A stretch of DNA of 34,716 nucleotides from Nitrospirota bacterium. Its GTDB lineage: Bacteria > Nitrospirota > Thermodesulfovibrionia > Thermodesulfovibrionales > Dissulfurispiraceae. Position numbers and translations under genes: made by a program. The notes below the pieces were generated by a model. It had not been told where the DNA came from. It searched no databases and was given only the letters and a program-made list of their open reading frames with translations. Location: NCBI GenBank assembly GCA_040758355.1, contig JBFLWF010000026.1:1-34716 (forward strand). The letters run 5' to 3'. Each line of letters starts with the position of its first letter. The first letter of the stretch is position 1. Positions 128-25,019 of the stretch are shown piece by piece.

Positions 128-251
128 TAGGTAGTATATTTATTATTGATTTGAGCAAATTTAACCAAAATTTAATGTCCGGTTGATACCGAGGAAATCT
201 TTATGCTTTAGTATTAGCCTATATAATTTTTAGAAATATCCATTCGTCCAA

Positions 252-279
252 TTGACTTTATCTGGATTTTGTCTAAAAT
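252..279 (+). promoter_or_regulatory. sigma70-type promoter of the activator gene
   Basis: TTGACT-N16-TAAAAT, upstream of RBS GGGGAGG and ATG 323. Confidence 0.55.
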
Positions 280-286
280 GAAGACA
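270..286. promoter_or_regulatory. TGT-N11-ACA site overlapping the -10 (putative autoregulatory operator)
   Basis: TGTCTAAAATGAAGACA, the same 17-bp motif found upstream of the sigma54 promoters. Confidence 0.6.
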
Positions 287-322
287 TATGCTTGACTTTA
301 AGAACTCTCGGGGGAGGATTAA

Positions 323-1774
323 ATGGCTCGTTTATATCCGCGCATTGCAAGGAATATTCCTGTGGAGGTAGATGCAAAGCATATAAGAACAGAAGGGATG
401 CTTGCCAACCTCGGCATGAATGGCGCTTTTCTGATCCCCGATAAGAAATTAACCGGGGACAATGATAATGTTCTGCTTAAATACAATCTTTCCGAATTTG
501 GAGGTTTTGAGCACAGCGGCAAGATTATCAGGAAGGACAGGAGTGGTTACGCCTTAAAATTTTACGATCTTGACATCACTGCAAAGGTTAAACTCTGGAA
601 ATATATAGCTGATAATCTGACTGCTATTAACGAATGTCCTTATTGCGGAGAGAAGTATAATAAAATGCCGATGGTCTGTAATGCCTGCGGCTGGGAGCTT
701 ACCTTCAATTCCCCGGAATATTTTGCATATCACGAAAAGCAGAGCCTTCTTAAAAAATTATATTCAGAGGCAAATAGTCTCACTATAGATTATTTACAGA
801 GACTGATTAATTTTATGGAAGTAGAAATCCTGAAGACAGGCGGCAGCGAAGGGTTTCAGGAGTTTGTTGGGGCGAGCAGTGTTATGTTAGAGGTATTCTC
901 AAAAATCAGGAAGGTGGCTCCAACAGACCTTCCGGTGCTTATACTTGGCGAAAGTGGCACCGGCAAGGAATTGACTGCATTGGCAATTCATGAGAGGAGC
1001 CTGAGAAAGGACAAGACTTTCGTCACCATAAACTGTGCTGCGATACCAGAAGGTCTGCTTGAGGCAGAACTCTTTGGCTACGAAAGGGGGGCATTTACCG
1101 GAGCGTATGCCAGCAAAAAGGGAAAATTTGAGTGCGCGGGTGGCGGTACTATTTTCTTAGATGAGATTGGAGACATGCCTCTAAGCCTTCAATCAAAGCT
1201 TTTGAGATTCCTTCAGGACAGGGTTATTGAAAGGATAGGGGCGATAGGCGGGAAAAAAGTTGATGTGCGGCTTATTGCTGCTACTAACCGTGACCTCGGC
1301 TCAGCCATTGCAGAAGGCAGGTTCAGAAACGACCTTTATTACAGATTGAATGCCTTCACGATAAGTCTTCCTCCGGTTAGAGAGAGGGGGGAGGATAAAG
1401 TAATACTTGCAAAGCATTTTCTTAACAGATTTTGCAGGGAGATGGGTTTAACAAAGACATTTACAGGAGAAGCAATAGAGGCTGTAAGGGCCTACCCATG
1501 GCCCGGCAATGTCAGGGAGATGATTAATAAAATAAGAAGGGCTATTGTGATGGCTGAGGCCAACTCCATAAGTCAGCGGGATTTGGATTTAGCTGCGCAA
1601 CAGACAATGGATGTATCGAAGGATACAGGCTTGCGGGATGCAATAGAAAAAATTGAAGTGCAGAAGATTAAAGAGACATTGAATACCTGCGGCAATAATA
1701 TCTCGAGAGCAGCCAGGCAATTGGGTGTGAGCCGCCAGAGCCTTTACAACTACAAAAAGAAGTACGGCATATAA
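323..1774 (+). CDS. sigma54-dependent enhancer-binding protein with N-terminal PilZ-like domain and zinc ribbon
   Basis: RLYPR (RxxxR) and NLGMNG PilZ-like motifs; CPYC/CNAC; Walker A GESGTGKE; GAFTGA; Walker B FLDEIG; WPGNVRE; C-terminal Fis-type HTH. Confidence 0.95.
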   Translation: MARLYPRIARNIPVEVDAKHIRTEGMLANLGMNGAFLIPDKKLTGDNDNVLLKYNLSEFGGFEHSGKIIRKDRSGYALKFYDLDITAKVKLWKYIADNLTAINECPYCGEKYNKMPMVCNACGWELTFNSPEYFAYHEKQSLLKKLYSEANSLTIDYLQRLINFMEVEILKTGGSEGFQEFVGASSVMLEVFSKIRKVAPTDLPVLILGESGTGKELTALAIHERSLRKDKTFVTINCAAIPEGLLEAELFGYERGAFTGAYASKKGKFECAGGGTIFLDEIGDMPLSLQSKLLRFLQDRVIERIGAIGGKKVDVRLIAATNRDLGSAIAEGRFRNDLYYRLNAFTISLPPVRERGEDKVILAKHFLNRFCREMGLTKTFTGEAIEAVRAYPWPGNVREMINKIRRAIVMAEANSISQRDLDLAAQQTMDVSKDTGLRDAIEKIEVQKIKETLNTCGNNISRAARQLGVSRQSLYNYKKKYGI

Positions 1775-1801: not shown

Positions 1802-1818
1802 TGTCCATAGGTTTTACA
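1802..1818. promoter_or_regulatory. Upstream activator sequence (TGT-N11-ACA) for P1
   Basis: TGTCCATAGGTTTTACA, starting 71 bp before the GG of the -24 box. IHF-like AATCAAAGGAATT at 1853-1865. Confidence 0.75.
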
Positions 1819-1871
1819 CCGATTAATAATCCCGCCTTTATAACTTCAATAAAATCAAAGGAATTGCAGAC

Positions 1872-1886
1872 AGGCATATTCTTTGC
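1872..1886 (+). promoter_or_regulatory. sigma54 -24/-12 promoter P1
   Basis: AGGCAT-ATTCT-TTGC matches TGGCAC-N5-TTGC with correct GG-N10-GC spacing. Confidence 0.8.
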
Positions 1887-1936
1887 TCAATCAAGAATGG
1901 AATATTTTTTCAAAGGGGATGCAGGTGGGCAGGAAT

Positions 1937-2146
1937 ATGGCAGTGAATGCGATAAAAGGGGCGGGGGCATTTAACAAGACGGTCATAAGGTGCCCCCATC
2001 TAATAAAATGGGCCATACATACATGTAAGGCAGGAGATAAGCCTTATGCCCCGAGCCTTTTTGAGCTCATGGAATACTGCACAACCGGAGACCATAGAAA
2101 ATGCCCTTTTTATTTTAGAAATAAGGAATGTAGGGGGATTTCATAA
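1937..2146 (+). CDS. Small Cys-rich hypothetical protein (69 aa)
   Basis: First ORF after P1, with AGGA RBS. Pattern CPHL..C..YxPSxFELxEYC..HxKCPFY suggests metal binding. The TTG start at 1883 overlaps the promoter and is unlikely. Confidence 0.7.
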   Translation: MAVNAIKGAGAFNKTVIRCPHLIKWAIHTCKAGDKPYAPSLFELMEYCTTGDHRKCPFYFRNKECRGIS

Positions 2147-2184: not shown

Positions 2185-2259
2185 ATGGACTTGATTTCTA
2201 TTTTAATGCTCTTACTGCCTTTAGCAGGCTGCATATACGCCTTTAACTTTAAGGCTTAA
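2185..2259 (+). CDS. Putative 24-aa hydrophobic micro-protein with LAGC lipobox-like motif
   Basis: Strong RBS AGGAGGAG at 2171-2178. Hand translation MDLISILMLLLPLAGCIYAFNFKA. Confidence 0.55.
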   Translation: MDLISILMLLLPLAGCIYAFNFKA

Positions 2260-2332: not shown

Positions 2333-4348
2333 ATGGATCTTGAATTTATCGATACACGCTCATTGTCCGCCATACAGGATTCCATTTCAGAAATAACCGA
2401 CCTGTCTTTCTCCACCTATGACAGCGGTGGCGCCCTGTTGGCTCCTCCAAAGAAAGAGGACAGGCTGCTTGCCCAGATAAAGTCCTATGCCTCCGGCAGA
2501 GAGGAATATGAAAGATTCATCCGCGATGGAATAGAAAGGGCAGTTTTAAGGAAGGAGACATCCGTTATTAAAGGGATTGCCAATCAGCACCATCTTTTTA
2601 TCCCCATTGATGTTAACGGCTTTAAACTTGTTCTTGTCAGCAGTCCATTTTACTTTATAAGAACAGAATTTGAGGATTTTTTGATTAAAAAGGGGGAATA
2701 TTTCGGTTTTTTGCTATCACATCTTGAATCATGGCTGGAGACAATTAATTTTAAAGACTACCCATCTGTTCAAAAAATATCGACCCATGTAAAATCCATA
2801 TTCGAAACATTCCTGCAGGGCAGTTACGAAAAGAATCTGAACCGCAGGAGGTACCAGATGGCCAAGACAATGATAGATCTCACATTCAATACCCAATTGC
2901 CGGTACCTGTAAAAGATTTTTACTCATCGTTTCTTGATGCAATACTCTTTCTCTTTAGTGTTGACACCGTCTCTGTAATGGTCAAGGAGAAGAATTTTTT
3001 TAAGACTGCCATAGCTTCAGGCAGGTCGCAGGATGATGTAAGGACTTTAAGAATGAAGGAAGATAATCCAATGGTCATCCGTTCTGTAGAAGGCTTTATT
3101 CCGGAATTCACAAATGATGTCATGGAAATCTCTAAGCTCGGTTTTCCGGAGAGCATAACATCACTGCATATCTTCCCTCTTTTGTGCAGGAACAACACCT
3201 ATGGTTTAGCGGTCATATACAACTCCGTTTTATCAAGGGAGGAATCCTACAGCATTTTAGAGTTCTGTAAGCTTTCATCGCTGGTACTTAAAAACCTTTC
3301 TTTACAAAATGCCCGTGAAAATTGCATCGATAAAATAACGGCACTAAACACAGCAGCAACAAAATTAACGCCAAAGCTTCATAATCTCGATATCCTTTAT
3401 GAGACCATTGTGGATACGGCCACAGAGCTTCTAAGGTCAGAAAAGGGCTCCCTCATGGTGCCAGAAGATGGCAGCTTACTGATAAAAGCTGTAAAGGGTA
3501 TAAACAAGTGGCTTATACAGGATATAAAGATAAGAATAGGAGAGGGAATTGCAGGAAAGGTATTTGAAGATGGCGAACCACTCCTTGTAAAAGATGTAGC
3601 AAAGGCCGGGATGCCGTATATCAAACCCCGAAGCCATTATAAAACAGGCTCCTTTGTCAGTGTGCCGATGAAATTTGCTTCCGAGACAATAGGCGTCCTC
3701 AGTATTTCGGATAAAATAACAGGGGAAGAGTTTACAGGACAGGATATGGATGTGCTCAACTACTTCTCGTCTCATGCCTCGATAGCTTTAAAGACTTCAA
3801 GTTATTACAACCTGGCTGAAAAAATGAAAGAGCTTTCTATTACAGACCCTCTGACAGGGGTCTTTAATAAACGATACCTTCAGGAGCGTTTCGAAGAGGA
3901 GATCCGCCGCTCGGAGCGTTATGATCTTGTTTTTTCCGTCGCAATATTCGATATTGATTATTTCAAGATCTTCAATGACACAGAAGGCCATCTCGCAGGA
4001 GACAATGCATTAAAAGGAATTGCCCGTATAGCCCACGGGTCTTTAAGGGCGAATGATATTTTAGCGAGATTCGGCGGCGAAGAATTCGCCATTTTAATGC
4101 CCCAGACAGACAATGAGAAAAAAGAGGCATTTGTCGTTGCAGAAAGAATAAGAGAGAGCATACGGGCGTCCCTCACCCGCAAGTGGGAAAAGTTTCCGTA
4201 TCCATCGATAACAGTGAGCATAGGCATATCATGCTTCCCCGACGATGGCAGGAGTATGGACGAACTGATAGAAAGCGCTGACAGGGCGCTTTACAAGGCA
4301 AAGGCATTGGGGAAAGATAGAACCGTTATATTTAAAAAAGAAGATTAA
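2333..4348 (+). CDS. Diguanylate cyclase (PocR-like sensor, GAF domains, GGEEF)
   Basis: SITDPLTG, DIDYFK, RAND (RxxD I-site) five residues before GGEEF, ADRALYKAK. The N-terminus resembles PocR; GAF motifs GEGIAGKV and FVSVPM are present. Confidence 0.93.
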   Translation: MDLEFIDTRSLSAIQDSISEITDLSFSTYDSGGALLAPPKKEDRLLAQIKSYASGREEYERFIRDGIERAVLRKETSVIKGIANQHHLFIPIDVNGFKLVLVSSPFYFIRTEFEDFLIKKGEYFGFLLSHLESWLETINFKDYPSVQKISTHVKSIFETFLQGSYEKNLNRRRYQMAKTMIDLTFNTQLPVPVKDFYSSFLDAILFLFSVDTVSVMVKEKNFFKTAIASGRSQDDVRTLRMKEDNPMVIRSVEGFIPEFTNDVMEISKLGFPESITSLHIFPLLCRNNTYGLAVIYNSVLSREESYSILEFCKLSSLVLKNLSLQNARENCIDKITALNTAATKLTPKLHNLDILYETIVDTATELLRSEKGSLMVPEDGSLLIKAVKGINKWLIQDIKIRIGEGIAGKVFEDGEPLLVKDVAKAGMPYIKPRSHYKTGSFVSVPMKFASETIGVLSISDKITGEEFTGQDMDVLNYFSSHASIALKTSSYYNLAEKMKELSITDPLTGVFNKRYLQERFEEEIRRSERYDLVFSVAIFDIDYFKIFNDTEGHLAGDNALKGIARIAHGSLRANDILARFGGEEFAILMPQTDNEKKEAFVVAERIRESIRASLTRKWEKFPYPSITVSIGISCFPDDGRSMDELIESADRALYKAKALGKDRTVIFKKED

Positions 4349-4350
4349 GG

Positions 4351-4367
4351 TGTAAGGTTTCTTTACA
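4351..4367. promoter_or_regulatory. Upstream activator sequence (TGT-N11-ACA) for P2
   Basis: TGTAAGGTTTCTTTACA, 82 bp before the GG (about one helical turn more than the others). IHF-like AATCAGCATTTTT at 4412-4424. Confidence 0.7.
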
Positions 4368-4431
4368 AATCGCAAAGAAATTATCCAAATCTTTTTAGAC
4401 TAATCCTTTAAAATCAGCATTTTTGCAAATC

Positions 4432-4446
4432 TGGCACATAATCTGC
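4432..4446 (+). promoter_or_regulatory. sigma54 -24/-12 promoter P2
   Basis: TGGCAC-ATAAT-CTGC. Confidence 0.8.
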
Positions 4447-4516
4447 TTAACAATTTAACAATAGGGGGTATCTGGCGATGGCATCTGATAGATGGTTGTT
4501 ATGGAGGATGTATTAC

Positions 4517-4711
4517 ATGAACAAGCACAGGGCAGAGACTCTTATCTCTATACTCATGGAATCGCCCATATATCTGACCCTTCCCATCGAGGCGAGGCGC
4601 TCTCTTCTAATAAGCCTGTTGGATAGCTATCCTTCCCTTTTCGATGCATGGGATTACGATGAAGAAGTCGAGTTCCGGTATGAGTTTGAACAAGCGGGAA
4701 ATCCTCATTGA
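4517..4711 (+). CDS. Small hypothetical protein (64 aa; alternative start 4478)
   Basis: Downstream of P2, RBS GGAGG at 4503-4507. Sequence MNKHRAETLISILMESPIYLTLP... with an acidic tail. Confidence 0.7.
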   Translation: MNKHRAETLISILMESPIYLTLPIEARRSLLISLLDSYPSLFDAWDYDEEVEFRYEFEQAGNPH

Positions 4712-4760: not shown

Positions 4761-4777
4761 TGTCCATCGTTTTGACA
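4761..4777. promoter_or_regulatory. Upstream activator sequence (TGT-N11-ACA) for P3
   Basis: TGTCCATCGTTTTGACA, 70 bp before the GG. Confidence 0.75.
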
Positions 4778-4829
4778 CATCTGAAAATTCAAACCATAGA
4801 AAACCTTGCAATTCCGCTATTGTTCTGAC

Positions 4830-4844
4830 AGGCATGTCTTTTGC
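4830..4844 (+). promoter_or_regulatory. sigma54 -24/-12 promoter P3 (glucan synthase operon)
   Basis: AGGCAT-GTCTT-TTGC. The context GACAGGCAT..TTTGCTCAA is nearly identical to P1. Confidence 0.8.
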
Positions 4845-4879
4845 TCAAATGACAGAAAACATATAAGGAAGAAATAATA

Positions 4880-7078
4880 ATGGCATCTGACAGGACTTTT
4901 CATATAGAGCGGGTAAAGGGAACAACTTTTATAGCACTGCTGTCTATAGTTGTGACTGCCTATTATCTCATATGGCGTTTTAACACACTCAATCCTGATG
5001 CGATGGGCTTCTCCATTGTCCTTTACTCTGCAGAGGTCTATGGTTTTATAACAACCCTGATGTTCTTCTTCATGATATGGAAGCCCAGAAAGAGGTTTTC
5101 TATTGCTCCGGAGCAGAGTCTCACAGTGGATGTATTCATTCCTACTTTAAATGAGGATGTGGAACTTCTGAGGAAGACGGTTTTAGGATGCCTCAACATG
5201 ACCTATCCCCATAAGACCTATATCCTTGATGACGGCAGGAGGCCGGAAGTCGAGACTCTTGCAGGGGAGCTTGGATGTGGATATATTGCAAGACCGGATA
5301 ACAGGGATGCCAAGGCAGGGAATCTCAACCATGCCATGGGAAGGACAGATGGTGAATTCATTGCTGTCTTTGATGCCGACCATGTGCCCCAGCCCGATTT
5401 TCTTGATAAGGTTCTGGGATATTTCAGGGACAGAAGGGTTGCCTTTGTCCAGACACCCCAGGATTTTTACAACATTGACTCCTTCCAGCACAGATTGACA
5501 AAAAGTAAAAAGCTCTGGACAGAGCAATCGCTCTTTTTCTCCTTGATACAGCCGGGAAAGGACAAATGGAATGCAGCCTTCTTCTGTGGGAGTTGTGCGG
5601 TTCTCAGGAGGAAGACATTGGAGGATATAGGAGGTTTTGCAACAGGAACAGTGACCGAAGACCTGCATACATCCATAAGGCTTCATGCAAAGGGGTGGAA
5701 ATCTATTTATCACAACGAGAGTCTTGCATACGGCATTGCTGCCCCTGTGCTTTATCCTTTCCAGCAGCAGAGGCTCAGATGGGGGCAGGGAGCAATGCAG
5801 GTCTTAACAAGGGATAACCCTGTTTTTATAAAGGGACTTACATTTCCCCAGAGGATATGCTATCTGGCATCCATAATCACATATTTTGACGGTTTTCAGA
5901 AGGCTGTTTATTATGTCTCTCCGATAATCGTACTTCTTACCGGTCTTTATCCGATTAAGGCCATTAATATGGATTTCCTCATCAGGTTCATCCCGCACCT
6001 CGGCCTTTCCCTCTGGGCTTATGAGGAGATGACAAAGGGCTTTGGCAGGATTTTTCTTATGGAGCAGTATAACATGATAAGGTTTAACACCTTTATCAAG
6101 TCTACTACGGGTTTCTTTAAGAATAAAAAACTGCGATTTAAAGTAACGCCGAAAACAGGATTCGAGAGAACACATATAAGAATGCTTATGTCCCAGGCGT
6201 TGATATTGTCTGTCGGCATTCTGTCCATTTTCTGGACAATCTCCGGACTTGCCCCTTATAAGATTGACAGGGGAATTATTGCTGCAAACATATTCTGGGC
6301 TTTGATAAATACGGGGATCGCATATACTGCGGTCAGATACGCATTAAGAAAAGTCCAGAGGAGGAAGGACTTCAGGTTCCCTGTCAATCTTCCCGCCCTT
6401 GCTGTTTTTCCAAATCCGGGGAGCCGCTTGATTGTAGCGGAGGATCTCCATGAAAGGGGGGCGTTAATACACAGCCCTGAGAGGTTTAAGTCCGGCTCTA
6501 TATTAACACTCCGTCTTCCCCTTGCTCACAGGACAGTTGAAATAAAGGGCAGGGTGCTTTATTCAAAAGAGGGTAGTGACCGTGGGATTCCAATTTTCCG
6601 TCATGGCATTGAGTTTGAGAAGGTATCAGGGGATGCGAGGGATGCAATAGTCATGTTCAACTTTTCCTATGCCGTCAATAAAATGATGAATAACCTTTCC
6701 ATTGCCGAAGAGACTCCTCTTTTAAAGATCCATCGAATGTTAAGGGGCACGGCAATTCAAAAACGGGGTGTAAGACACCACTTGCATTTGCCGGGAACCC
6801 GCTGGATTAGTGCAAAAGAGCAACTGCCATTTGTTACAGAAGACATAAGCGACTACGGTATGAGGATATTCACATACAGTGAAATCAAGGAGCCTTTTAT
6901 ATCCTTTGACCTTGTCTCCCATAATGGGTGGCCATTGCTTAAAGGGAGAATCATATGGCGTAAAGGTATGGATTTTCATGGTAATAAGGCATGGCAGTAT
7001 GGCGTGAAATTTTTGATTGAAACAGAGAAGGTTGTTCACAAGGAAGTATTGGGAGGGCTTGTACACGCCAATGCCTGA
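4880..7078 (+). CDS. bcsA: BcsA-like GT2 beta-glucan (cellulose) synthase catalytic subunit with two PilZ domains
   Basis: LDDG, AKAGNLN, FDADH, QTPQ, FFCGS, VTED and QRLRW motifs; multiple TM helices; PilZ RKDFR/DLHERG and a second PilZ with DISDYG. Confidence 0.88.
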   Translation: MASDRTFHIERVKGTTFIALLSIVVTAYYLIWRFNTLNPDAMGFSIVLYSAEVYGFITTLMFFFMIWKPRKRFSIAPEQSLTVDVFIPTLNEDVELLRKTVLGCLNMTYPHKTYILDDGRRPEVETLAGELGCGYIARPDNRDAKAGNLNHAMGRTDGEFIAVFDADHVPQPDFLDKVLGYFRDRRVAFVQTPQDFYNIDSFQHRLTKSKKLWTEQSLFFSLIQPGKDKWNAAFFCGSCAVLRRKTLEDIGGFATGTVTEDLHTSIRLHAKGWKSIYHNESLAYGIAAPVLYPFQQQRLRWGQGAMQVLTRDNPVFIKGLTFPQRICYLASIITYFDGFQKAVYYVSPIIVLLTGLYPIKAINMDFLIRFIPHLGLSLWAYEEMTKGFGRIFLMEQYNMIRFNTFIKSTTGFFKNKKLRFKVTPKTGFERTHIRMLMSQALILSVGILSIFWTISGLAPYKIDRGIIAANIFWALINTGIAYTAVRYALRKVQRRKDFRFPVNLPALAVFPNPGSRLIVAEDLHERGALIHSPERFKSGSILTLRLPLAHRTVEIKGRVLYSKEGSDRGIPIFRHGIEFEKVSGDARDAIVMFNFSYAVNKMMNNLSIAEETPLLKIHRMLRGTAIQKRGVRHHLHLPGTRWISAKEQLPFVTEDISDYGMRIFTYSEIKEPFISFDLVSHNGWPLLKGRIIWRKGMDFHGNKAWQYGVKFLIETEKVVHKEVLGGLVHANA

Positions 7079-7224: not shown

Positions 7225-7947
7225 ATGAGAAATAGAAAAGTGTTTTTTATATTTGTATTTGCGATCTTCGTGTTGTTTTCTTCCGACTCGAGGGCAGCTT
7301 CTTTCAGTTTGCTCTTCGGAGGAGAGGCAGACACAGAGGGACAGAGTTATATTTACGCAGGTGTAATCGGAGAAAGCCCGCTGCAGAAGAAGCTTTCCCT
7401 TATGTATAAGCTGTGGCTTGACCATCTCACATACGAATTTGAAAAGGACAACGATACGATTAAGGCAAAAGCGCCTGCCTTTCAGCCGGCCCTTGGCCTG
7501 AAATTTCTTGATAGTGGGTGCAGCACAACCCTCTGGGTAGGCTGGGAGCACAGGAATACAAATATAAAGCCCGTCAGGGAAAATGTGGAAGTAAGGGGTG
7601 TTACGGACAGCCTTGTGCTGCAGTTCGAATTTAATAAATGGACAGAGAAATCGACAAATTTTAATATCATTGCAAGCTACAGTACAGAGAACAGCTATGT
7701 CTGGACAAGGGGGAGAATAAAACAGGAGCTTTCATCTTACCCCCTCGGACGTGACCTTCCCTTGAGGATAGGGCTTGAGGTTGTCGGACAGGGGAATAAG
7801 GACTATAGTGCTTTTCAGGTTGGACCGCTATTAGAAATATATAGCCTCGAAAAAAATGCCTCCTTTGCAATCCGCGGAGGATATAAGCGCAGCTCAAGCA
7901 ATGACAATAGCGCCTATGGAGGCATTGAACTCTTTTTCGGCTTTTAG
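7225..7947 (+). CDS. bcsS: BcsS/YaiO-like outer-membrane beta-barrel protein
   Basis: RBS AGGAGG; signal peptide; amphipathic beta-strands ending in a C-terminal Phe (YGGIELFFGF); located between the bcsA copies. Confidence 0.7.
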   Translation: MRNRKVFFIFVFAIFVLFSSDSRAASFSLLFGGEADTEGQSYIYAGVIGESPLQKKLSLMYKLWLDHLTYEFEKDNDTIKAKAPAFQPALGLKFLDSGCSTTLWVGWEHRNTNIKPVRENVEVRGVTDSLVLQFEFNKWTEKSTNFNIIASYSTENSYVWTRGRIKQELSSYPLGRDLPLRIGLEVVGQGNKDYSAFQVGPLLEIYSLEKNASFAIRGGYKRSSSNDNSAYGGIELFFGF

Positions 7948-9886: not shown

Positions 9887-9903
9887 TGTCTAAAGGCTTT
9901 ACA
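9887..9903. promoter_or_regulatory. Upstream activator sequence (TGT-N11-ACA) for P4
   Basis: TGTCTAAAGGCTTTACA, 71 bp before the GG. Confidence 0.78.
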
Positions 9904-9937
9904 CTGGTCATAACCAATCCCCTTCCGAACCCAGCAA

Positions 9938-9950
9938 AATCAAGGGTTTA
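9938..9950 (+). promoter_or_regulatory. IHF-binding site
   Basis: AATCAAGGGTTTA is an exact match to WATCAANNNNTTR, between the enhancer and the promoter. Confidence 0.7.
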
Positions 9951-9956
9951 AAACTC

Positions 9957-16067: not shown

Positions 16068-16131
16068 TGTCTAAAAGTTTTACACTGAATAATCTCCTGT
16101 CCTGACAAACCTCAATAAAATCAGGGTCTTA
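16068..16131 (+). promoter_or_regulatory. Enhancer plus IHF-like site without a -24/-12 core (orphan or relic promoter)
   Basis: TGTCTAAAAGTTTTACA (16068-16084) and AATCAGGGTCTTA (16119-16131), at the same 51-bp offset as in P1 and P4. No GG-N10-GC follows. Confidence 0.65.
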
Positions 16132-17360: not shown

Positions 17361-17376
17361 AGAGGGCACTTGATAT

Positions 17377-17862
17377 ATGAATAGAACTTGGTTGCTGGTG
17401 ATACTCTTACTGATAGTATCAGGGGGTTATATGCCACTGCATGGTGAAGCAGCAAAACCCGTTGTTTTTCGCGCCATGCCAGACCCGGAGCAATGGGTTT
17501 TCAGTGATGAGCCTGCTTATCTTGTGGTCACAGAGAAGAATTGGTCCCGGTACTATATGAGTCAACCAAAGGGTTCTGATTTTGCAAACTGCATTTATAT
17601 TGTTGCCTCCCGTGGGGTGAAGCCTAATCCGGGTTATAGAATCAGGATTCTGCAAATCCAGCAACAGAAAGACACAATAACAATAAAAGTTGAACTCAGG
17701 GAGCCTGATCCGAAAAGGGTTTACCCTCAGGTTATAGTTCGTCCATGTGTTGTGGCTGAAGTTGTTAAGGCAGATTTGCAAAGATATGATCTATTGAGAT
17801 TTGTTTTCACGGATCAAAAAGGGCGCCAGATCGCTACAGCAAAGGCAGAAATTTATCGTTAA
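17377..17862 (+). CDS. Protease complex subunit PrcB-like secreted protein
   Basis: Signal peptide; GVKPNPGYRIRI..I and QVIVRP resemble PrcB_C; adjacent to the subtilase. Confidence 0.7.
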   Translation: MNRTWLLVILLLIVSGGYMPLHGEAAKPVVFRAMPDPEQWVFSDEPAYLVVTEKNWSRYYMSQPKGSDFANCIYIVASRGVKPNPGYRIRILQIQQQKDTITIKVELREPDPKRVYPQVIVRPCVVAEVVKADLQRYDLLRFVFTDQKGRQIATAKAEIYR

Positions 17863-17884: not shown

Positions 17885-19516
17885 ATGAAAAAGGAGATTC
17901 CTTTAGGCAAAATGCTCCTCCATAGTGGTCTAATTGGAGAAGATAAGCTTGAAGTAGCTTTAAAAGAGCAGCAGGTCAGCCGTCGACGAATCGGGGAGAC
18001 CCTGGCCGATCTCGGTTTTGTCTCAATGGAGGACATGCTCAGGGCATTGAGTTTTCAGCTTGGAATAAAATACCTTCCGTTTTCAGAGTTTACGGGGGTA
18101 ATCCATGACGGTTCATACCCATCTATAAAGTTCATGAAACAGTACAAAGTTGTTCCTTTGGGCAAAGATAATGGTGCTATAAGGATCGTAATGTCAGACC
18201 CGCTGGATACTTATGCATTAAATGCACTCCGTCTCTTTTTCAACAATGACCTTGAGGTATACCTGGGCAGCGAGAGGGACATAACCGAGGCTATTGAGCA
18301 ATACTTTGGAAATAGTACCCAGATGACATCCTTAATGGAGAGTATGAGAGAGGAACAAGATGACGTGGATGCCGGGATGCAGGAGGATGTCCACCACCTG
18401 AGGGACATTGCCCATGAGGCTCCTGTAATAAATCTCGTAAACATGTTCATTACAAAGGCGGTTGAAAGCAGGGCAAGTGATATCCATATAGAGCCATTTG
18501 AAAATAGGTTCAAGGTTAGATACAGGGTCGATGGGGTACTAATTGAAGCGCAGTCTCTTCCAAAGAGGCTTCAGTCAGCGGTTATATCGAGGGTTAAGAT
18601 AATGTCAAGGCTGAATATCGCTGAGAGAAGGCTGCCCCAGGATGGCCGTATAAAGCTGAGGGTTTCAGGCAGGGAGGTCGACCTCAGGGTCTCAACACTG
18701 CCTACCCTCTACGGAGAAAGTGTTGTGATGCGTATTTTAGACAGGGGCAGCACCTTGATTGACCTCGAGGAACTCGGCTTTACAGAGGGTACCTTTAACG
18801 AGTATGAAAGGCTCATAGCCATGCCTTATGGAATGATTCTTGTTACAGGCCCGACAGGCAGCGGGAAGACAACGACCCTTTATGCATCCCTCAGCCGTAT
18901 AAACTCCTCTGACAGGAAGATAATCACAATAGAAGACCCGATAGAATACGAGATAGAGGGGATTAATCAGATACAGGTGAAGCCAAAGATCGGGCTTACA
19001 TTTGCCAATGGCCTCAGGCATATCGTCCGCCAGGATCCAGACATTATAATGGTGGGAGAGATCAGGGACAGGGAAACAGCAGAGATAGCCATCCATGCAG
19101 CCCTCACAGGTCATCTCGTCTTCAGTACACTGCATACAAATGATGCGCCAGGCGCTGTAACAAGGCTTTTAGACATGGGCATCGAGGGATTTTTAGTGGC
19201 ATCATCCCTTGTGGGGGTTCTGGCCCAGCGTCTTGTGAGGGTAATCTGTCCTGGGTGCAAGGAAGAGTGTAAAGAGGGTGAGGGCTGTGAGAAATGCAGG
19301 CGCACCGGTTATATGGGAAGGACAGGGGTCTTTGAATTAATGGTAATGAACGAGGAGATAAGGCAATTGATCCTCGATAAGGCGAGTGCTGATATTATCA
19401 GGCAGAAGGCAATATCTCAGGGGATGCTTACCCTGAGGGAATGCGGCTGGCAGAAGGTAAGAGAAGGGATAACAACAGTTAAGGAGGTCTTAAGGGTAAC
19501 GAAAGGGGATATTTAG
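17885..19516 (+). CDS. gspE: Type II secretion ATPase GspE with MshEN-like N-domain
   Basis: ASDIHIEP, ERRLPQDG, GPTGSGKTT, TIEDPIE, VGEIRD, STLHTND and CxxC..CxxC. Confidence 0.93.
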   Translation: MKKEIPLGKMLLHSGLIGEDKLEVALKEQQVSRRRIGETLADLGFVSMEDMLRALSFQLGIKYLPFSEFTGVIHDGSYPSIKFMKQYKVVPLGKDNGAIRIVMSDPLDTYALNALRLFFNNDLEVYLGSERDITEAIEQYFGNSTQMTSLMESMREEQDDVDAGMQEDVHHLRDIAHEAPVINLVNMFITKAVESRASDIHIEPFENRFKVRYRVDGVLIEAQSLPKRLQSAVISRVKIMSRLNIAERRLPQDGRIKLRVSGREVDLRVSTLPTLYGESVVMRILDRGSTLIDLEELGFTEGTFNEYERLIAMPYGMILVTGPTGSGKTTTLYASLSRINSSDRKIITIEDPIEYEIEGINQIQVKPKIGLTFANGLRHIVRQDPDIIMVGEIRDRETAEIAIHAALTGHLVFSTLHTNDAPGAVTRLLDMGIEGFLVASSLVGVLAQRLVRVICPGCKEECKEGEGCEKCRRTGYMGRTGVFELMVMNEEIRQLILDKASADIIRQKAISQGMLTLRECGWQKVREGITTVKEVLRVTKGDI

Positions 19517-20628
19517 TGGAGATATTTTCCTATGAAGCAGCAACAAAGGAAGGGGACAACGGCTCATCTCACCTTCACTGGATTATTGGAGATAAGGTCA
19601 GAGAAAAGGATATTATGACCTTTACATGCCAGCTCGGCGTGCTGCTTGAGGCAGGTTTTACAATAGATAAAGGCCTTTTGATTCTATTGGAATTAACCGA
19701 AAAAAGGGCTATGAGGGAGGTCATCAAAGAACTCCTTTCCAGTATTCGTGGCGGTAAGTCCCTTTCGGCTGCCCTTTCGAAGTTTCCTTTAATATTTCCT
19801 GATCTTTACATAAACATGATAAAGGCAGGGGAGACAGGAGGGTTTCTTGAGGATGCCATTTTGAGACTGGCCAACCATCTTGAAGACTCTCAGAGACTAA
19901 GGGAGGATATGCATTCAGCCCTCATCTATCCTATCCTACTCGGCATTATAGGGGGGGTGGCTATTGCGGTGCTTCTGATCTTCGTTGTGCCGAGGTTTAC
20001 CATGATATTTTCTGATATGGGCCAGGCCCTTCCTCTTCCAACGTTAATCCTGCTTTCTATAAGTTCCGGAATCAAGTACTACTGGTGGCTGATTTTATCC
20101 ATTCTACTCGGATGTTTTCTGTTATTACGCTATTATTTAAGGAGCGCTGCCGGAAGACGTTATTGGGACACTTTGAGATTCAGGCTTCCGCTGTTTGGCA
20201 GGCTTTACAGACAGGCCGCTGTCTCACGCTTTGCAAGGACACTTGGTACACTTTTGCAGAGCGGGGTGCCGATCCTCCATGCCCTTCAAGCAGTTGAAGG
20301 GACACTGGGGAGCGACAGGATGGCGCAGATGATCTCTTCGGTCAGGGAATCCGTAAGAAAAGGGAAGAGGATCTCAGGTCCTCTAAAAGACAGCGATATA
20401 TTTCCTCCTATTGCCATCCACATGGTAACTATAGGAGAAGAGGCTGGCAAATTAGATGAGATGCTCCTTAAGATAGCCGAACAGTTTGATTCAGAGGTAA
20501 GGATTACTGTAAAGAGGCTCCTTTCCCTTCTTGAGCCGGGTATGATCCTTTTTATGGGACTCATAGTTGGTTTTATTGTTATAGCTATACTCATGGCCAT
20601 ATTCAGCCTTAATGAACTGCCATTTTAA
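19516..20628 (+). CDS. gspF: Type II secretion inner-membrane platform protein GspF
   Basis: GETGG, ALIYP, FVVPRF, GEEAGKLDEML and LLEP; shortened N-terminus. Confidence 0.92.
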   Translation: MEIFSYEAATKEGDNGSSHLHWIIGDKVREKDIMTFTCQLGVLLEAGFTIDKGLLILLELTEKRAMREVIKELLSSIRGGKSLSAALSKFPLIFPDLYINMIKAGETGGFLEDAILRLANHLEDSQRLREDMHSALIYPILLGIIGGVAIAVLLIFVVPRFTMIFSDMGQALPLPTLILLSISSGIKYYWWLILSILLGCFLLLRYYLRSAAGRRYWDTLRFRLPLFGRLYRQAAVSRFARTLGTLLQSGVPILHALQAVEGTLGSDRMAQMISSVRESVRKGKRISGPLKDSDIFPPIAIHMVTIGEEAGKLDEMLLKIAEQFDSEVRITVKRLLSLLEPGMILFMGLIVGFIVIAILMAIFSLNELPF

Positions 20629-20640
20629 TAGAGAATAAAA

Positions 20641-21060
20641 ATGAAAATTTTCAAAAATGACATGGGTTTCACATTGATTGAACTGATGGTGGTGATTGTT
20701 ATACTGGGACTTCTGGCTGCCCTTGTAGCTCCAAAGATGTTTGGAAAGGTAGGGCAGGCAAAGCAAAAAGCAGCAAAGGCACAGATAGAACTCTTTGGAA
20801 CAGCCCTTGATGCCTTCAGGCTTGATGTGGGCAGATACCCGACAACTTCTGAGGGGCTTCAGGCTTTAAGGACAAGACCAACTGGCGTTGAAAAATGGAA
20901 TGGTCCTTATCTCCCTAAAGAAGTCCCCCCTGACCCATGGGGGTATCAATATAATTATGTTTCTCCAGGCAGTCAAGGTGAGTATGACCTCTATTCCCTC
21001 GGAGCTGACAATGCCGAAGGCGGTGAAGTGGAAAAAATGGATATCGTGAGCTGGAAGTGA
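20641..21060 (+). CDS. gspG: Major pseudopilin GspG
   Basis: G|FTLIE prepilin site, GRYPTTSEGL, WNGPYL and DPWG. Confidence 0.95.
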   Translation: MKIFKNDMGFTLIELMVVIVILGLLAALVAPKMFGKVGQAKQKAAKAQIELFGTALDAFRLDVGRYPTTSEGLQALRTRPTGVEKWNGPYLPKEVPPDPWGYQYNYVSPGSQGEYDLYSLGADNAEGGEVEKMDIVSWK

Positions 21061-21067
21061 GATAGAG

Positions 21068-21430
21068 TTGATAAAAGAGAAAGGTTTTACACTCCTTGAA
21101 GTCATCGTTGCCATTACCGTAATGGGGATAGGCATTGTTCTGATAATGCAGCTTTTTTCTGGCGGGCTCAGGTCAGGGAAGGTTTCCCGTGACTATACTG
21201 TGGCTGTTGTTCACGCAAGGGAAAAAATGGAAGAGATGTTAATCAACCCTTTAGCAGGCACCGGGGATTTTGGTGACGGCTATAAATGGCAGACAGAGGT
21301 CATGCCCTACAGCCTGACAGGAGAAGATTTTGGGGTGTTAAAAATAACAGTAAAGGTATCATGGGCTACACTCAGGAAGGATAGGGCAATCGAAATAATT
21401 ACCCTGAAGACAAAGCCGGAGGAAAGATAA
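21068..21430 (+). CDS. gspI: Minor pseudopilin GspI-like
   Basis: G|FTLLE; short pilin ending in KITVKVSW. Confidence 0.75.
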   Translation: MIKEKGFTLLEVIVAITVMGIGIVLIMQLFSGGLRSGKVSRDYTVAVVHAREKMEEMLINPLAGTGDFGDGYKWQTEVMPYSLTGEDFGVLKITVKVSWATLRKDRAIEIITLKTKPEER

Positions 21431-22003
21431 GTGAGGGAAAGGGGCTTTACCCTTTTAGAACTTCTGATCGCAATGACAATCCTCGGCCTCATTGCTGTGA
21501 TAGTGGGTGCCGGTGTGAGACTCGGCATCAGGGCATGGGAAAGAGGGGAAACAGACGCTGATAATTCCAGGAAGATTAGATATTTTGTTGAAAGGATCGG
21601 TCAGCAGATAAAATCTGCTTATCCATATCAAATTGAGGGAGATGGTGAAAGGGCAGTGGCATTTCAGGGCAGGTCTGATTCCATTTTTTTTGTTACCTCT
21701 TCTGTGAAGGCTTCTGAAGGCGGGTTAAAATGGATCTCCTATTTTATAAGGGATGGCAAACTCATGATGCGGGAAGGCATACTCCCTGATAAAAGGGCTA
21801 TGGAAAGGATTTCAAAGGAAGGGCATGTTTTTGACATGGAGATATCCGGACTTAAATTCCAATATTTCTCCTCAAAAGAAAAAGAATGGAAGGAATCATG
21901 GGACTCAAAGACAGAACTTCCTGTGGCGATAAAGATTAATGCGGATAAAATCCCATCGGTTATTATCTCTATTCCATCAGGGTTTAAAGATGAGAAAGAA
22001 TAA
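21431..22003 (+). CDS. gspJ: Minor pseudopilin GspJ-like
   Basis: G|FTLLE; C-terminal W.ESW...ELPVAIKI. Confidence 0.8.
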   Translation: MRERGFTLLELLIAMTILGLIAVIVGAGVRLGIRAWERGETDADNSRKIRYFVERIGQQIKSAYPYQIEGDGERAVAFQGRSDSIFFVTSSVKASEGGLKWISYFIRDGKLMMREGILPDKRAMERISKEGHVFDMEISGLKFQYFSSKEKEWKESWDSKTELPVAIKINADKIPSVIISIPSGFKDEKE

Positions 22004-22886
22004 TCAAACAGGCGCTGCACTCATGCTCGTATTGTGGGTCATAGTCCTGCTTACGGCAATTGTAACGGGGTTTTCCCTTTTTATGAGAACAGAGGTAAAT
22101 ATTACGAAGAAATTCAAGGAACGGACAGAGGCATATTATGCAGCCATCGCAGGGATTGAAAGGGCAAAGGCAGATATCCTTTCTGTAAGAGAACAGATGT
22201 ATCTTGAAGAAAGTAAGGAATTGATGCCATGGGAGAAACCAAACAGGAAGGGTTTCCTCGGCAATGCTTCATATTCCTATACAATTATAGATGATGACAG
22301 AAAGATAGACCTCAATTCAGCAACCTCAGAACAACTAAGATACCTACTCATGGCTTCAGGCGTAGAAGGAACCGAACTTGACACAATAATTGATGCCATC
22401 CTCGACTGGAGGGACACTGATAACCTCCGCAGGCTAAATGGAGCAGAGGAGGATTATTATCAGTCCCTGCCAAAACCGTATAGCTGCAAAGATGGGCCTT
22501 TTGATACAGTCGAAGAGCTTCTCCTTGTGAGGGGCATTACACCGGAAATCTTCTACGGTTCAAAAAGGGAGAAAGAGCCGAAGTATAGGGGCATTGTCAG
22601 GTATCTAACAGCTAAAGGCCCTAACACTATTAATATAAACATTGCTGACAGGGTTGTGCTTGAGACGAGGTTCGGGACTGCTGTGGAAGAGAACACACTC
22701 ATGAAGAGGAGCGCCGGGCTGATATCGAGTCGCATGGTATACGGGGTTGAATCCAGTTGCTTTACAATAGTCTCCACGGGTAGCAGCTCTAACAACAAAC
22801 GGACTATCAGGACAATAGTGCGGAAGAGGAATGAAAATACGATAGAGATACTTTACTGGAATGATAACTGGCAGAACGCGGAGTAG
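21990..22886 (+). CDS. gspK: Minor pseudopilin GspK
   Basis: G|AALMLVLW, KIDLN, ILDWRD.D, GAEEDYY and EELLLVRG. Confidence 0.9.
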   Translation: MRKNNQTGAALMLVLWVIVLLTAIVTGFSLFMRTEVNITKKFKERTEAYYAAIAGIERAKADILSVREQMYLEESKELMPWEKPNRKGFLGNASYSYTIIDDDRKIDLNSATSEQLRYLLMASGVEGTELDTIIDAILDWRDTDNLRRLNGAEEDYYQSLPKPYSCKDGPFDTVEELLLVRGITPEIFYGSKREKEPKYRGIVRYLTAKGPNTININIADRVVLETRFGTAVEENTLMKRSAGLISSRMVYGVESSCFTIVSTGSSSNNKRTIRTIVRKRNENTIEILYWNDNWQNAE

Positions 22887-22890
22887 TACA

Positions 22891-23970
22891 ATGTTTAAAG
22901 ATAAACTCTTTAAGACGATTTTGGGCATTGATTTCAGGGATGACTCCTTAACGCTCACATGCCTTAAAAAAACTATATCGGGAATAAAACCATCCTCAGC
23001 AATAACCCTTCCATTTAATAATGGCAGGCATGAAGATGCAGTTTCAGGGATAAAAAAATTTATCAGCCAGCACAGGATTAATAAAAAAACGCTGTTTGCG
23101 AGTATTCCTGAAAGATGGGCAATCATCAAATTCATGGACATCTCTTCCACGGGAAGGGATAGCCTTAAGGGACTGATACAGTACGAGATTGAGCGGCATA
23201 TACCATTTAAGATAGAGGATGTGTTTTATGACTTCCATGTCCTTGGGAAGAATGGCAGCAGTCATAGGATTATGCTTGTAACTGTTCAAAAGGAAAAGGT
23301 AGAACATATAATGGAGTTCTTAAGAAAGATACCCCTTCAGCCTCAGGCCGTTAATGTCTCATTTTCTGCCGATGCGGAAAGCGCTGAAATGCAGGAGCTA
23401 TCCTCCAAAATAAATATCCTTCCCCACAGGAATACAGATAGGCAGATCGGCCCTTTAATTACAAAAATATTTCTGCCTGTTATTTTACTTCTCGGCCTTA
23501 CCATATTAGCATCGGAGGTGATCAATGAAAGTAGGTCCCTAAAGGCCGTTGAGGAAAGGATCAAGAAGAATGGGCCAGAGATGGCAGTGGTCGAGGAACT
23601 CTCTGCAGAGCTTAATGAGCTTTACAAAAAAAGGAGATTTCTCCTTAGCGTGAAAACTGATAATGTCAGCAAGCTCGATATGCTTGCTGAATTGACAAGC
23701 ATAATACCCGTCGATACCTGGATTTCAGAACTTGATTATAATGAACCAGAAAAAAAGAACGAGAAGCACGCTGGAGAGCTTACAATAAGTGGATTTGCTG
23801 CATCCTCCTCAAGGCTTATCTCATTACTTGAGGGTTCTATGTTTTTTGAAAATGTGGAGTTTGTAGGGCCGATTACAAAAAGCGGTGGAAAGGAGATTTT
23901 TAAAATCAAGGCAATGGTTGTTAAACCTGCTAAAAGAAAACCCGATAAAGAGGGTCTGCACAATCAATGA
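22891..23970 (+). CDS. gspL: GspL-like (PilM-PilN fusion type) assembly protein
   Basis: LGID actin-like start, ERHIPF, INILP before the TM helix, and a PilN-like periplasmic domain. Confidence 0.75.
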   Translation: MFKDKLFKTILGIDFRDDSLTLTCLKKTISGIKPSSAITLPFNNGRHEDAVSGIKKFISQHRINKKTLFASIPERWAIIKFMDISSTGRDSLKGLIQYEIERHIPFKIEDVFYDFHVLGKNGSSHRIMLVTVQKEKVEHIMEFLRKIPLQPQAVNVSFSADAESAEMQELSSKINILPHRNTDRQIGPLITKIFLPVILLLGLTILASEVINESRSLKAVEERIKKNGPEMAVVEELSAELNELYKKRRFLLSVKTDNVSKLDMLAELTSIIPVDTWISELDYNEPEKKNEKHAGELTISGFAASSSRLISLLEGSMFFENVEFVGPITKSGGKEIFKIKAMVVKPAKRKPDKEGLHNQ

Positions 23971-24545
23971 AGAGACTTTTAAAATTTAGATTGCAACACA
24001 GAGAAAAGAAGGTTCTTTTAATAGGGGGGTTATTTGTCACAATTTTAATAACATTCCATCTTTTTACATGGTATGATGGCATGAAGAGATCTATAGGTGA
24101 TTACGCAGAAGCCAAAAGAGTTTATCTGCTGAAACAGTTAAATAAGATTTCAGAAAAAGAAGCCATATCCAGAAGACTTGAAGCTACAAAAGGTGAACTA
24201 AGGGAGTTAGAGAATGGCCTTATCAAAGGGAATAAACCTCCCCTATCAGCAGCAGAGCTTCAGAGGCTACTCAAGGAAATGGCAAAGGCCTCAGGGGTTG
24301 ATATAAAGTTGGAACGGGCCCTGAGTCCGATTGATACGGAGATGTATTCTTCTATCCCTGTGGAAATAGGGTTTACAGCAATTACAAAAAAATTGAAGGA
24401 CATGCTCTTAATGATAGAGGCTTCACCGCTCCTGCTCACAATCTCAGAGATGAAAATTCGAGTTACCGGTTTAGAAGTGTATGTGACGATAACGGTGAGA
24501 GGGCTTATCAGGAAAGGGATTAAGGAGCATGCAGAAAGGGCATAA
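23967..24545 (+). CDS. gspM: GspM/PilO-like protein
   Basis: REK + TM helix, coiled coil, AAELQ and ferredoxin-like C-terminus; follows gspL. Confidence 0.72.
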   Translation: MKRLLKFRLQHREKKVLLIGGLFVTILITFHLFTWYDGMKRSIGDYAEAKRVYLLKQLNKISEKEAISRRLEATKGELRELENGLIKGNKPPLSAAELQRLLKEMAKASGVDIKLERALSPIDTEMYSSIPVEIGFTAITKKLKDMLLMIEASPLLLTISEMKIRVTGLEVYVTITVRGLIRKGIKEHAERA

Positions 24546-25019
24546 ATGAAGCGCAGTCATTTTTTATTAAATGTAATTCTCATTGCCATTGCAGGGTTTC
24601 TGGGTTTCAAGCTCTATAATTCACTATCGAGACCACCGGATATACCCTTTCTGGCTGTCCAGGGGCAGGCCACATCAGATGAAGAGGAGGTGCAAGCGAA
24701 GGTGAGAGTGGACGAGAGGTCTGATTTCCAGACAATTGTTAAGAGAGATATCTTCAGACCTGATAGAAAAGAGCCAGAGGATATCTTAAGATTATCTTCA
24801 CCATCCCTATTCCCTCTGCCGAGACTTGTTGGCATAGCAATTTTTGGCAATGAGAGCATGGCCTTTTTTGAGGATCCTATAACCAAGGCTGTAAAGGTAT
24901 GCCGCATAAAGGATTCTATAGCCGGTTTTACAGTGCATAAGATACAGCAGGACAGGGTAGTTCTCCTTAGAGGAGACGAAAGGGTGGAGGTGAAAATCAG
25001 GGAGATAAAAGAAAATTAG
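24546..25019 (+). CDS. GspC-like (HR domain) protein
   Basis: N-terminal TM, DIFRPDR, LVGI..A, and D.IAGF.V..I..DRVVL. Confidence 0.65.
   Translation: MKRSHFLLNVILIAIAGFLGFKLYNSLSRPPDIPFLAVQGQATSDEEEVQAKVRVDERSDFQTIVKRDIFRPDRKEPEDILRLSSPSLFPLPRLVGIAIFGNESMAFFEDPITKAVKVCRIKDSIAGFTVHKIQQDRVVLLRGDERVEVKIREIKEN

What the first reader, a model, noticed from the sequence alone, without database searches (positions are those of the whole stretch)
250..25019. Self-contained c-di-GMP/sigma54 biofilm-matrix island: glucan synthases, Fap amyloid, protease and T2SS
Seen in sequence: about 25 kb of co-oriented genes combining a c-di-GMP source (GGEEF cyclase), several candidate c-di-GMP receptors (PilZ activator, PilZ synthases, MshEN-like GspE), a polysaccharide arm and an amyloid arm, all behind one repeated promoter architecture. 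Established: enterics pair cellulose with curli via CsgD, and Pseudomonas fap operons usually stand alone. Inference: this is an analogous amyloid+glucan matrix programme with its own dedicated regulator. I am not aware of this combination being described as one locus.
Basis: partly seen in the sequence, partly recalled or inferred. Interest (0 to 1): 0.92.

Follow-up and report, generated by a model that had tools for sequence, protein, structure and literature searches.

The report
Mobile biofilm island with swappable amyloid
A block of genes shared between two Nitrospirota species places sugar-polymer synthases and amyloid-fibre genes behind repeated promoters that a neighbouring activator likely switches on in response to the biofilm signal c-di-GMP, and the same activator and promoter turn up with different fibre genes in other bacteria, including a Gammaproteobacterium.

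Summary
Mostly confirmed. The genes are there, and four intact promoters (TGT-N11-ACA, 51-63 nt, sigma-54 site) stand before the diguanylate cyclase, a conserved 64-aa protein, bcsA-bcsS-bcsA and a Fap-like operon. The motif is not new: it is the PEP-CTERM box. Its likely reader here is new: a PilZ + zinc-ribbon sigma-54 activator from the PrsR clade, in a genome where PrsK, PrsR and exosortase were not found. The box follows this activator in 25 of 41 related loci. The block is an insertion: three congeners have the empty site and a fourth shares it at low synonymous distance, but with a different amyloid cassette behind the same promoter. Activator plus promoter also sit in a Gammaproteobacterium with a third cassette. 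Amyloid genes beside bcsA recur in Acidithiobacillus and a probable Aquificota. Corrections: the protease and type II secretion genes lost their sigma-54 site, the secretion system lacks GspD and GspH and has two large deletions, BcsB is absent, the block is a mosaic that extends left of the window, and a sigma-54 activator beside fap is already known (BrfA). c-di-GMP binding, DNA binding and expression are untested.

The parts
252..279 (+). sigma-70-like promoter candidate for the activator gene (10 of 12 match; weak evidence)
323..1774 (+). PilZ + Cys4 zinc-ribbon + AAA+ (GAFTGA) + HTH sigma-54 activator, PrsR clade
1802..1887 (+). promoter P1: box 1802-1818, 52 nt, sigma-54 site 1871-1887
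1937..2146 (+). 69-aa Cys/His-rich ORF, no family; paralog on C11; frame appears shifted in G044
2185..2259 (+). possible 24-aa hydrophobic ORF with a ribosome-binding site; untested
   Evidence: read
2333..4348 (+). PocR-GAF-GGDEF diguanylate cyclase, GGEEF site and RxxD inhibitory site intact; paralog of a chromosomal cyclase (64%)
4351..4447 (+). promoter P2: box, 63 nt, sigma-54 site
4517..4711 (+). 64-aa protein of no known family; its homologs directly follow the activator and a box in many relatives
4761..4845 (+). promoter P3: box, 51 nt, sigma-54 site
4880..7078 (+). BcsA-like GT2 synthase 1; DDG, KAGN, FDAD, TED, QRLRW motifs; two PilZ-like domains
7225..7947 (+). BcsS-family protein (PF17036), likely outer-membrane barrel (inferred)
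7950..9803 (+). BcsA-like synthase 2, 73% identical to synthase 1, one PilZ
9887..9972 (+). promoter P4: box, 52 nt, sigma-54 site; homologous in G044 and in Gammaproteobacterium locus L062
9985..10068 (+). possible 27-aa membrane peptide, kept in G044, not in L062
10070..10447 (+). FapA-position secreted protein; no family hit; IILWDE motif shared with first genes of four other cassettes
10464..11111 (+). FapB-like minor subunit, three repeats
11128..12576 (+). FapC-like major subunit, three repeats, long linker, no C-terminal CxxC
12587..12615 (+). 13-bp stem terminator after fapC
12649..13374 (+). FapD-like C39 peptidase (SCGAA, HFVV)
13385..14008 (+). FapE-position secreted protein, no family hit
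14216..15229 (+). FapF-like outer-membrane channel, 200 nt after a hairpin, probably its own transcript
15281..15802 (+). Skp/OmpH chaperone (not in the G044 island)
15803..16054 (+). 83-aa membrane-anchored ORF, two copies in G044
16068..16084 (+). orphan fifth box; its sigma-54 site was deleted relative to G044
16161..17862 (+). S8 subtilisin-like protease (catalytic motifs intact) and PrcB_C protein
17885..25019 (+). reduced type II secretion cluster gspE F G I J K L M C; no gspD or gspH; GspF lacks 35 aa, GspL about 150 aa, GspC is short

Best explanation
This is an inserted gene block in which a PilZ-domain sigma-54 activator of the PrsR clade likely binds c-di-GMP and switches on four PEP-CTERM-box promoters, and so is predicted to drive a glucan and an amyloid-like fibre for a biofilm matrix. 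Steps. (1) Shown: activator anatomy, four boxes with sigma-54 sites, one rpoN in the genome. (2) Inferred: the activator reads the boxes, from clade, recognition helix and conserved adjacency. (3) Inferred: c-di-GMP on the PilZ domain licenses the AAA+ domain. (4) Inferred: P1 raises the cyclase, closing a positive loop capped by the cyclase's inhibitory site. (5) Inferred from family knowledge: c-di-GMP also activates the two synthases at their PilZ domains; the beta-glucan leaves through BcsS without BcsB, BcsC or BcsZ; linkage type unknown. (6) Inferred: P4 makes Fap-like subunits in excess (terminator after fapC), exported through FapF with FapD. (7) Shown: the cassette behind P4 differs between genomes. 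The protease and reduced T2SS are passengers of the same insertion, not part of the intact promoter set.
For: Box matches Haft's description (17-mer ending TTTACA, mean spacer 62.8 nt; PMC1569441 passages) and precedes true PEP-CTERM genes beside prsK/prsR in the same class. Activator groups with PrsR at 100/97 (55 rows); its helix type SRx[ST][LV]Y is not seen in the 25 other activators of the genome that were compared. PrsK, PrsR over cut-off and exosortase not found in G000. Strict box: 4 in G000, all in the island, 3 in G044, 0 in three congeners lacking the island. Box within 330 nt downstream of the activator in 25 of 41 scorable loci against 1 of 25 other activators. G201 has one strict box, next to its 87%-identical activator, and no PrsR over cut-off. 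PilZ fold (pLDDT 84; best hits PilZ domains) with both arginines of RxxxR invariant in 16 of 16. Empty site in G007, G032, G074. dS 0.03-0.44 for shared island genes against 1.1-1.7 for pilMNO. Precedent: BrfA with RpoN drives fap (PMC9207406); BerB binds c-di-GMP (PMC5552954 abstract).
Against: No binding, expression or phenotype data. The second PilZ motif is non-canonical (NLGMNG here; S at the D/N position in most relatives). In most relatives the activator sits with only the small protein, unlinked from fap, bcsA and gsp. 16 of 41 loci lack a box right after the activator, and the 41 are close kin, not independent. The strict pattern was written from this window. All Fap hits are under the NCBIfam cut-offs. 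Fap genes lie beside bcsA in only 3 of 80 metagenome bcsA loci. The cyclase is a paralog of a chromosomal gene. A CsgD-like LuxR gene and an AraC-type response regulator at the island's left end could also regulate.
Confidence: 0.66

Rival explanations
1. Same island and regulon, but the activator's PilZ-zinc-ribbon senses something other than c-di-GMP (a partner protein such as the 64-aa product, metal or redox state).
For: Second PilZ motif is degenerate; the four cysteines are invariant; the same N-terminal module also sits on methyltransferases (2 of 2 checked); the 64-aa protein is the most constant neighbour.
Against: RxxxR invariant, PilZ fold kept; a cyclase and two PilZ synthases are behind its boxes.
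Confidence: 0.17
2. A hot spot where unrelated surface genes piled up; it is decaying and is not one working programme.
For: Mosaic origins; deleted fifth promoter; reduced T2SS; IS elements and a broken first cassette gene in G044; dN/dS 0.13-0.51 against 0.05-0.07 for pilMNO.
Against: All long frames are open, dN/dS is below 1 throughout, four promoters are intact, and the amyloid-plus-bcsA/bcsS pairing recurs with box-like promoters in distant lineages.
Confidence: 0.1
3. One reading: one programme that also includes the protease and a working type II secretion system gated by c-di-GMP at GspE.
For: Same insertion in two species, 84-98% identical proteins; GspE passes the NCBIfam c-di-GMP motif cut-off (59 vs 38 bits); the fifth box keeps a near-consensus sigma-54 site in G044; a PilQ secretin lies next to the island and might be borrowed.
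Against: No GspD or GspH in G000, only PilQ in G044; shared deletions in GspF and GspL; first MshEN arginine absent here and in 4 of 6 orthologs; no intact promoter in G000.
Confidence: 0.07

Closest known systems
Pseudomonas Fap operon with its adjacent sigma-54 activator BrfA (PMC9207406, abstract and passages; PMC3792158, parts 1-2 of 5)
   Same: fapA-B-C-D-E-F order, three-repeat subunits (FapC structure hit E 3e-16), -24/-12 promoter before fapA, neighbouring activator, fapF regulated apart.
   Different: Activator has a PilZ-zinc-ribbon input; glucan synthases and a cyclase share the promoter type; host is Nitrospirota, whereas the 2013 survey found Fap only in Proteobacteria and little horizontal transfer; cassettes are exchanged. 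BrfA itself was not placed on my tree.
PrsK-PrsR / PEP-CTERM box regulon (PMC1569441 passages; PMC9850573 passages)
   Same: Same enhancer and spacing; activator AAA+/HTH in the same clade; output is cell-surface material.
   Different: No receiver domain, no PrsK, no exosortase or PEP-CTERM target found; one-component input.
c-di-GMP-responsive enhancer-binding proteins BerB, FleQ, VpsR (PMC5552954 abstract; search listing)
   Same: Link c-di-GMP to matrix gene transcription; BerB uses sigma-54.
   Different: None is described with a PilZ domain in the listing I saw; that FleQ binds through its AAA+ domain is passages, the rest is recalled.
Bcs cellulose systems and enteric curli plus cellulose under CsgD (PMC8892547 passages)
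   Same: BcsA catalytic motifs and PilZ; amyloid and glucan co-regulated with a dedicated cyclase.
   Different: No BcsB, C or Z; BcsA-BcsS pair only; both arms in one locus; sigma-54 control; Fap-type, not curli.
Acidithiobacillus locus L153 (activator, phosphodiesterase, bcsA, cyclase, fap-like genes, bcsS)
   Same: Same set of functions in one locus; its activator is sister to the PilZ clade (96/85).
   Different: No PilZ-zinc-ribbon on its activator; different order; papers seen mention Fap and cellulose synthase there separately.

Membership tests
Fap amyloid system | fapA-F gene order with C39 peptidase and FapF channel | tested here: met
   A and E assigned by position only
Fap amyloid system | three Fap repeats in FapB and FapC | tested here: met
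Fap amyloid system | NCBIfam equivalog cut-offs for FapB, C, D, F | tested here: not met
   91/190, 161/195, 190/330, 205/700 bits; hence 'Fap-like'
Fap amyloid system | forms cross-beta fibrils | not testable with these tools
   needs ThT, EM or fibre diffraction
PrsR (TIGR02915) | receiver domain, cognate PrsK, score over 502.6 | tested here: not met
   397 bits, PilZ instead of receiver, no PrsK
PrsR clade of activators | AAA+/HTH groups with PrsR | tested here: met
   100/97 among the 55 sampled rows; sample limited to this class
PEP-CTERM box | 17-mer ending TTTACA, 32-92 nt before a sigma-54 site | tested here: met
   3 of 4 end TTTACA, one TTGACA; spacers 51-63
PEP-CTERM/exosortase system | PEP-CTERM proteins and exosortase | tested here: not met
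   exosortase not found; the PEP-CTERM search rang nowhere, controls included, so it is inconclusive alone
c-di-GMP-binding PilZ domain | PilZ fold and RxxxR | tested here: met
c-di-GMP-binding PilZ domain | (D/N)x(S/A)xxG motif | tested here: inconclusive
   NLGMNG here; variable in relatives; motif definition recalled
Bcs cellulose synthase complex | BcsA D,D,D,QxxRW motifs and PilZ | tested here: met
   453-456 bits, under the CelA cut-off 699
Bcs cellulose synthase complex | BcsB partner (and BcsC/Z) | tested here: not met
   BcsB family not found in genome; no C or Z in window; C and Z not searched genome-wide
Type II secretion system | secretin GspD, minor pseudopilin GspH, full-length GspF and GspL | tested here: not met
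MshEN c-di-GMP receptor | tandem RLGxxL motifs | tested here: inconclusive
   HMM over cut-off but first arginine replaced

The most novel reading that the evidence does not exclude
A portable c-di-GMP-to-sigma-54 matrix switch: a PilZ-zinc-ribbon activator of the PrsR clade, its box promoter and a FapA-like leader move between species and phyla as a socket into which different Fap/Fil-type amyloid cassettes and BcsB-less BcsA-BcsS synthases are plugged; PrsR, this activator and the fap-adjacent activators form one enhancer family that reads the same box with exchangeable sensors.
Probability: 0.5. Interest if true: 0.75.

Novelty: new variant of a known kind. Interest (0 to 1): 0.62.

Why it matters
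It would add a new type of c-di-GMP transcriptional effector (PilZ fused to a sigma-54 activator), found in dozens of Thermodesulfovibrionia genomes. It ties the long-predicted PEP-CTERM box to amyloid and glucan genes and offers a one-component activator with which to test that box directly. It extends Fap-like systems beyond Proteobacteria and shows cassette exchange and cross-phylum transfer, against the 2013 survey. It points to a minimal BcsA-BcsS glucan exporter (57 of 80 related metagenome loci) and to cultured Acidithiobacillus, where the amyloid-plus-glucan locus can be tested. The parts are all of known kinds and nothing is shown at the bench, so the score is moderate.

Tried and rejected
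Single-sequence fold of the whole activator failed (pLDDT 38) and was not used. No RNA holder was listed; no read mapping was done. First metagenome scan with BcsS found nothing. No Rfam match. No plasmid match for the activator N-terminus. Atlas: only unnamed clusters under 0.9 for the 64-aa protein, nothing usable for the large repeat protein. No solved relative of BcsS. The activator of loci L106/L107 could not be looked up. Earlier findings: none by words or place, one unrelated by sequence. Rejected: that the boxes belong to a genome-wide PrsR regulon; that all 64 of 201 N-terminal hits are activators (two checked are methyltransferases; one activator, L022, falls outside the clade); a proven join of the two G027 contigs (no overlap; both ends lie in repeated AMIN-like units); linkage of bcsA-bcsS with fap in Nitrospirota G070, G205, G246 (none within the 32-35 kb read). 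Romling and Galperin 2015 was not held and may describe BcsS operons like this one; supplements were not read.
Full report
Setting. The window is the start of contig C26 of a 2.77-Mb genome, 99% complete. Record titles of close loci and named homologs place it in Nitrospirota, class Thermodesulfovibrionia; a 97% partial hit is named Dissulfurispira sp.. This placement is inferred.

Observation. Four promoters of the form TGT-N11-ACA, 51-63 nt, sigma-54 site lie at 1802, 4351, 4761 and 9887. None of 1000 shuffles gave more than one. A fifth box at 16068 has no sigma-54 site. In congener G044 the same box is followed by a near-consensus site and a lipoprotein gene; a short repeat flanks the missing stretch, so the window has lost them by deletion.

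The promoter is known. Haft et al. describe a 17-mer ending TTTACA, on average 62.8 nt before a sigma-54 site, as the predicted PrsR site (PMC1569441, passages). In this class the same motif stands before PEP-CTERM genes, in two cases beside prsK/prsR. In G000, PrsK, a PrsR over cut-off and exosortase were not found. The strict pattern, written from this window, hits four times in G000, three in G044, and not in three congeners without the island; 56 of 201 class genomes have a hit and the reversed control none.

The activator. It has a PilZ domain, a four-cysteine ribbon, an AAA+ domain with GAFTGA and a Fis-type HTH. A model of residues 1-176 from 16 sequences (pLDDT 84) matches solved PilZ domains. 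Both arginines of RxxxR and the four cysteines are invariant; the second PilZ motif varies. On a tree of 55 activators, 18 of 19 PilZ activators form a clade (100/99) sister to five PrsR proteins (100/97). With ten near-copies dropped and three rows added, an Acidithiobacillus fap-locus activator joins as sister to the PilZ clade (96/85; bootstrap not fully settled). The recognition helix resembles PrsR's and none of the 25 other activators compared. The N-terminus hits 64 of 201 class genomes, 41 of 50 in one family but 1 of 35 in the own family; some hits are methyltransferases. All 45 genome loci from a scan of species genomes carry Nitrospirota-type or loosely assigned titles, one titled Pseudomonadota. 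In 25 of 41 scorable loci (4 of 45 dropped as cut short) a box follows within 330 nt, against 1 of 25 other activators; 23 of 41 then encode a homolog of the 64-aa protein at 4517. These loci are kin, so this shows conservation, not many independent events.

It is an island and a mosaic. G007, G032 and G074 have the tonB-like gene next to the reductase gene with none of the island between. In G000 the insertion runs from about C2:165984 through C77 to window 25038, by synteny with G044; the contigs do not overlap. Between G000 and G044, shared island genes have dS 0.03-0.44 and pilMNO 1.1-1.7, which points to transfer after the species split. The cyclase is a paralog of a chromosomal gene. The closest activator, synthase, BcsS and Gsp relatives outside the genus among the class genomes searched are in G027, another family, on separate small contigs.

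Exchangeable cargo. Behind an almost identical P4, G044 carries a different cassette: two 134-aa subunits, FapD 45% and FapF 46% identical, dS about 3. Trees put window, G044 and L062 FapD in three groups. L062 is a 45-49% GC insert with transposase-like genes at both ends in a 60-68% GC backbone whose genes cluster with Gammaproteobacteria; it holds the activator (87% amino acid, 86% DNA), a promoter 77% identical to P4 and a 1110-aa repeat protein. A chimeric assembly is not excluded, though a second 63,983-base contig length is listed for both a close activator and a clustered rnhA. The 2013 survey found Fap only in Proteobacteria with little transfer (PMC3792158, parts 1-2).

Does amyloid plus glucan recur? 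Yes, rarely. Of 80 metagenome loci with a related synthase, 57 show BcsS and 3 show fap-like genes (2 of 30 loci of 10 kb or more). L107 has box, cassette, box, bcsA, bcsS; L106, from the same metagenome, is similar; L107's GlyQ best matches PDB 5f5w, which I recall as Aquifex, so Aquificota is probable. L153 is Acidithiobacillus: activator, phosphodiesterase, bcsA, cyclase, fap-like genes, bcsS. In the class sample FapF is in 6 of 201 genomes and bcsA in 34; three have both, three have fap genes with no synthase hit.

Secretins in G000 are PilQ and one in an MSHA-like cluster; GspD and GspH have no match of their own. GspF lacks 35 residues and GspL about 150, in both G000 and G044, while six of the seven related clusters read carry GspD within the stretch or, in G050 and G027, right after gspC. 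The frames are open and dN/dS is 0.13-0.51, so slow decay or a reduced function are both possible. GspE lacks the first MshEN arginine. BcsB was not found. Fap hits are all under curated cut-offs.

Mechanism. Most likely: c-di-GMP binds the activator, which opens P1-P4; P1 raises the cyclase (positive feedback, limited by its RxxD site); c-di-GMP also turns on the synthases; BcsS exports the glucan and FapF the subunits. Anatomy, clade, adjacency and mobility are shown; ligand binding, DNA binding, export routes and phenotype are inferred.

What is in print. A sigma-54 promoter and adjacent activator for fap are known (BrfA; PMC9207406, abstract and passages), as is a c-di-GMP-binding sigma-54 activator of matrix genes (BerB; abstract) and the curli-cellulose pairing (PMC8892547, passages). 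Acidithiobacillus papers mention Fap and cellulose synthase separately (passages). Searches listed no title or abstract on a PilZ-type sigma-54 activator or a joint fap-bcs locus; the library lacks most subscription papers.

Verdict. Real, partly over-read, and more interesting in its regulator and its exchangeable cargo than in its size. New variant of a known kind; interest 0.62.

Noticed in passing
G000:C77 and end of C2; L001:2561-4476: Left end of the island: AraC-type response regulator, LuxR regulator whose best NCBIfam hit is CsgD (E 8e-19, far under cut-off) and a STAS-like protein.
   Followed up: partly
L019:10007-11410, L021:9566-10963: The same PilZ-zinc-ribbon module fused to a SAM-dependent methyltransferase: a second undescribed output for this sensor.
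   Followed up: partly
L062:4448-7780, L107:4760-7330, L106:2-1633: 850-1110-aa secreted proteins of Asn/Gln-rich repeats (23-25% N+Q) with no Pfam or NCBIfam hit, next to FilB/FilC-like genes: candidate new amyloid or beta-solenoid subunits.
   Followed up: partly
L001:15574-16426: Two 134-aa single-repeat subunits replace FapB/C in G044; an IS lies between fapE and fapF.
   Followed up: partly
L002:1570-2373: CsgG/LpoB-like lipoprotein behind the fifth box in G044, between two copies of the 83-aa ORF; deleted in the window.
   Followed up: partly
L003:6220-6851 and L010:3-1340: FapD in G027 is fused behind repeated AMIN-like domains.
   Followed up: no
L025, L026, L027, L028: Another BcsB-less synthase operon in the class: bcsA, a 470-aa membrane protein, a 144-aa protein and, in L025, bcsG.
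   Followed up: no
L004:112-16734: Run of very large secreted proteins upstream of a fapD-fapF cassette in G045.
   Followed up: no
window spacers of P1, P2, P4, P5: A shared AAAATCA word between box and sigma-54 site resembles an IHF site (consensus recalled).
   Followed up: no
window 25027-34561: Ordinary core genes: geranylgeranyl-reductase family, Usp, galT-like, type III pantothenate kinase, birA, nth, rpsL-rpsG-fusA (names by inspection except the first).
   Followed up: no
L030 about 5960-6180: A 170-210 nt element repeated on many G000 contigs (87-89% identical), possibly a MITE.
   Followed up: no
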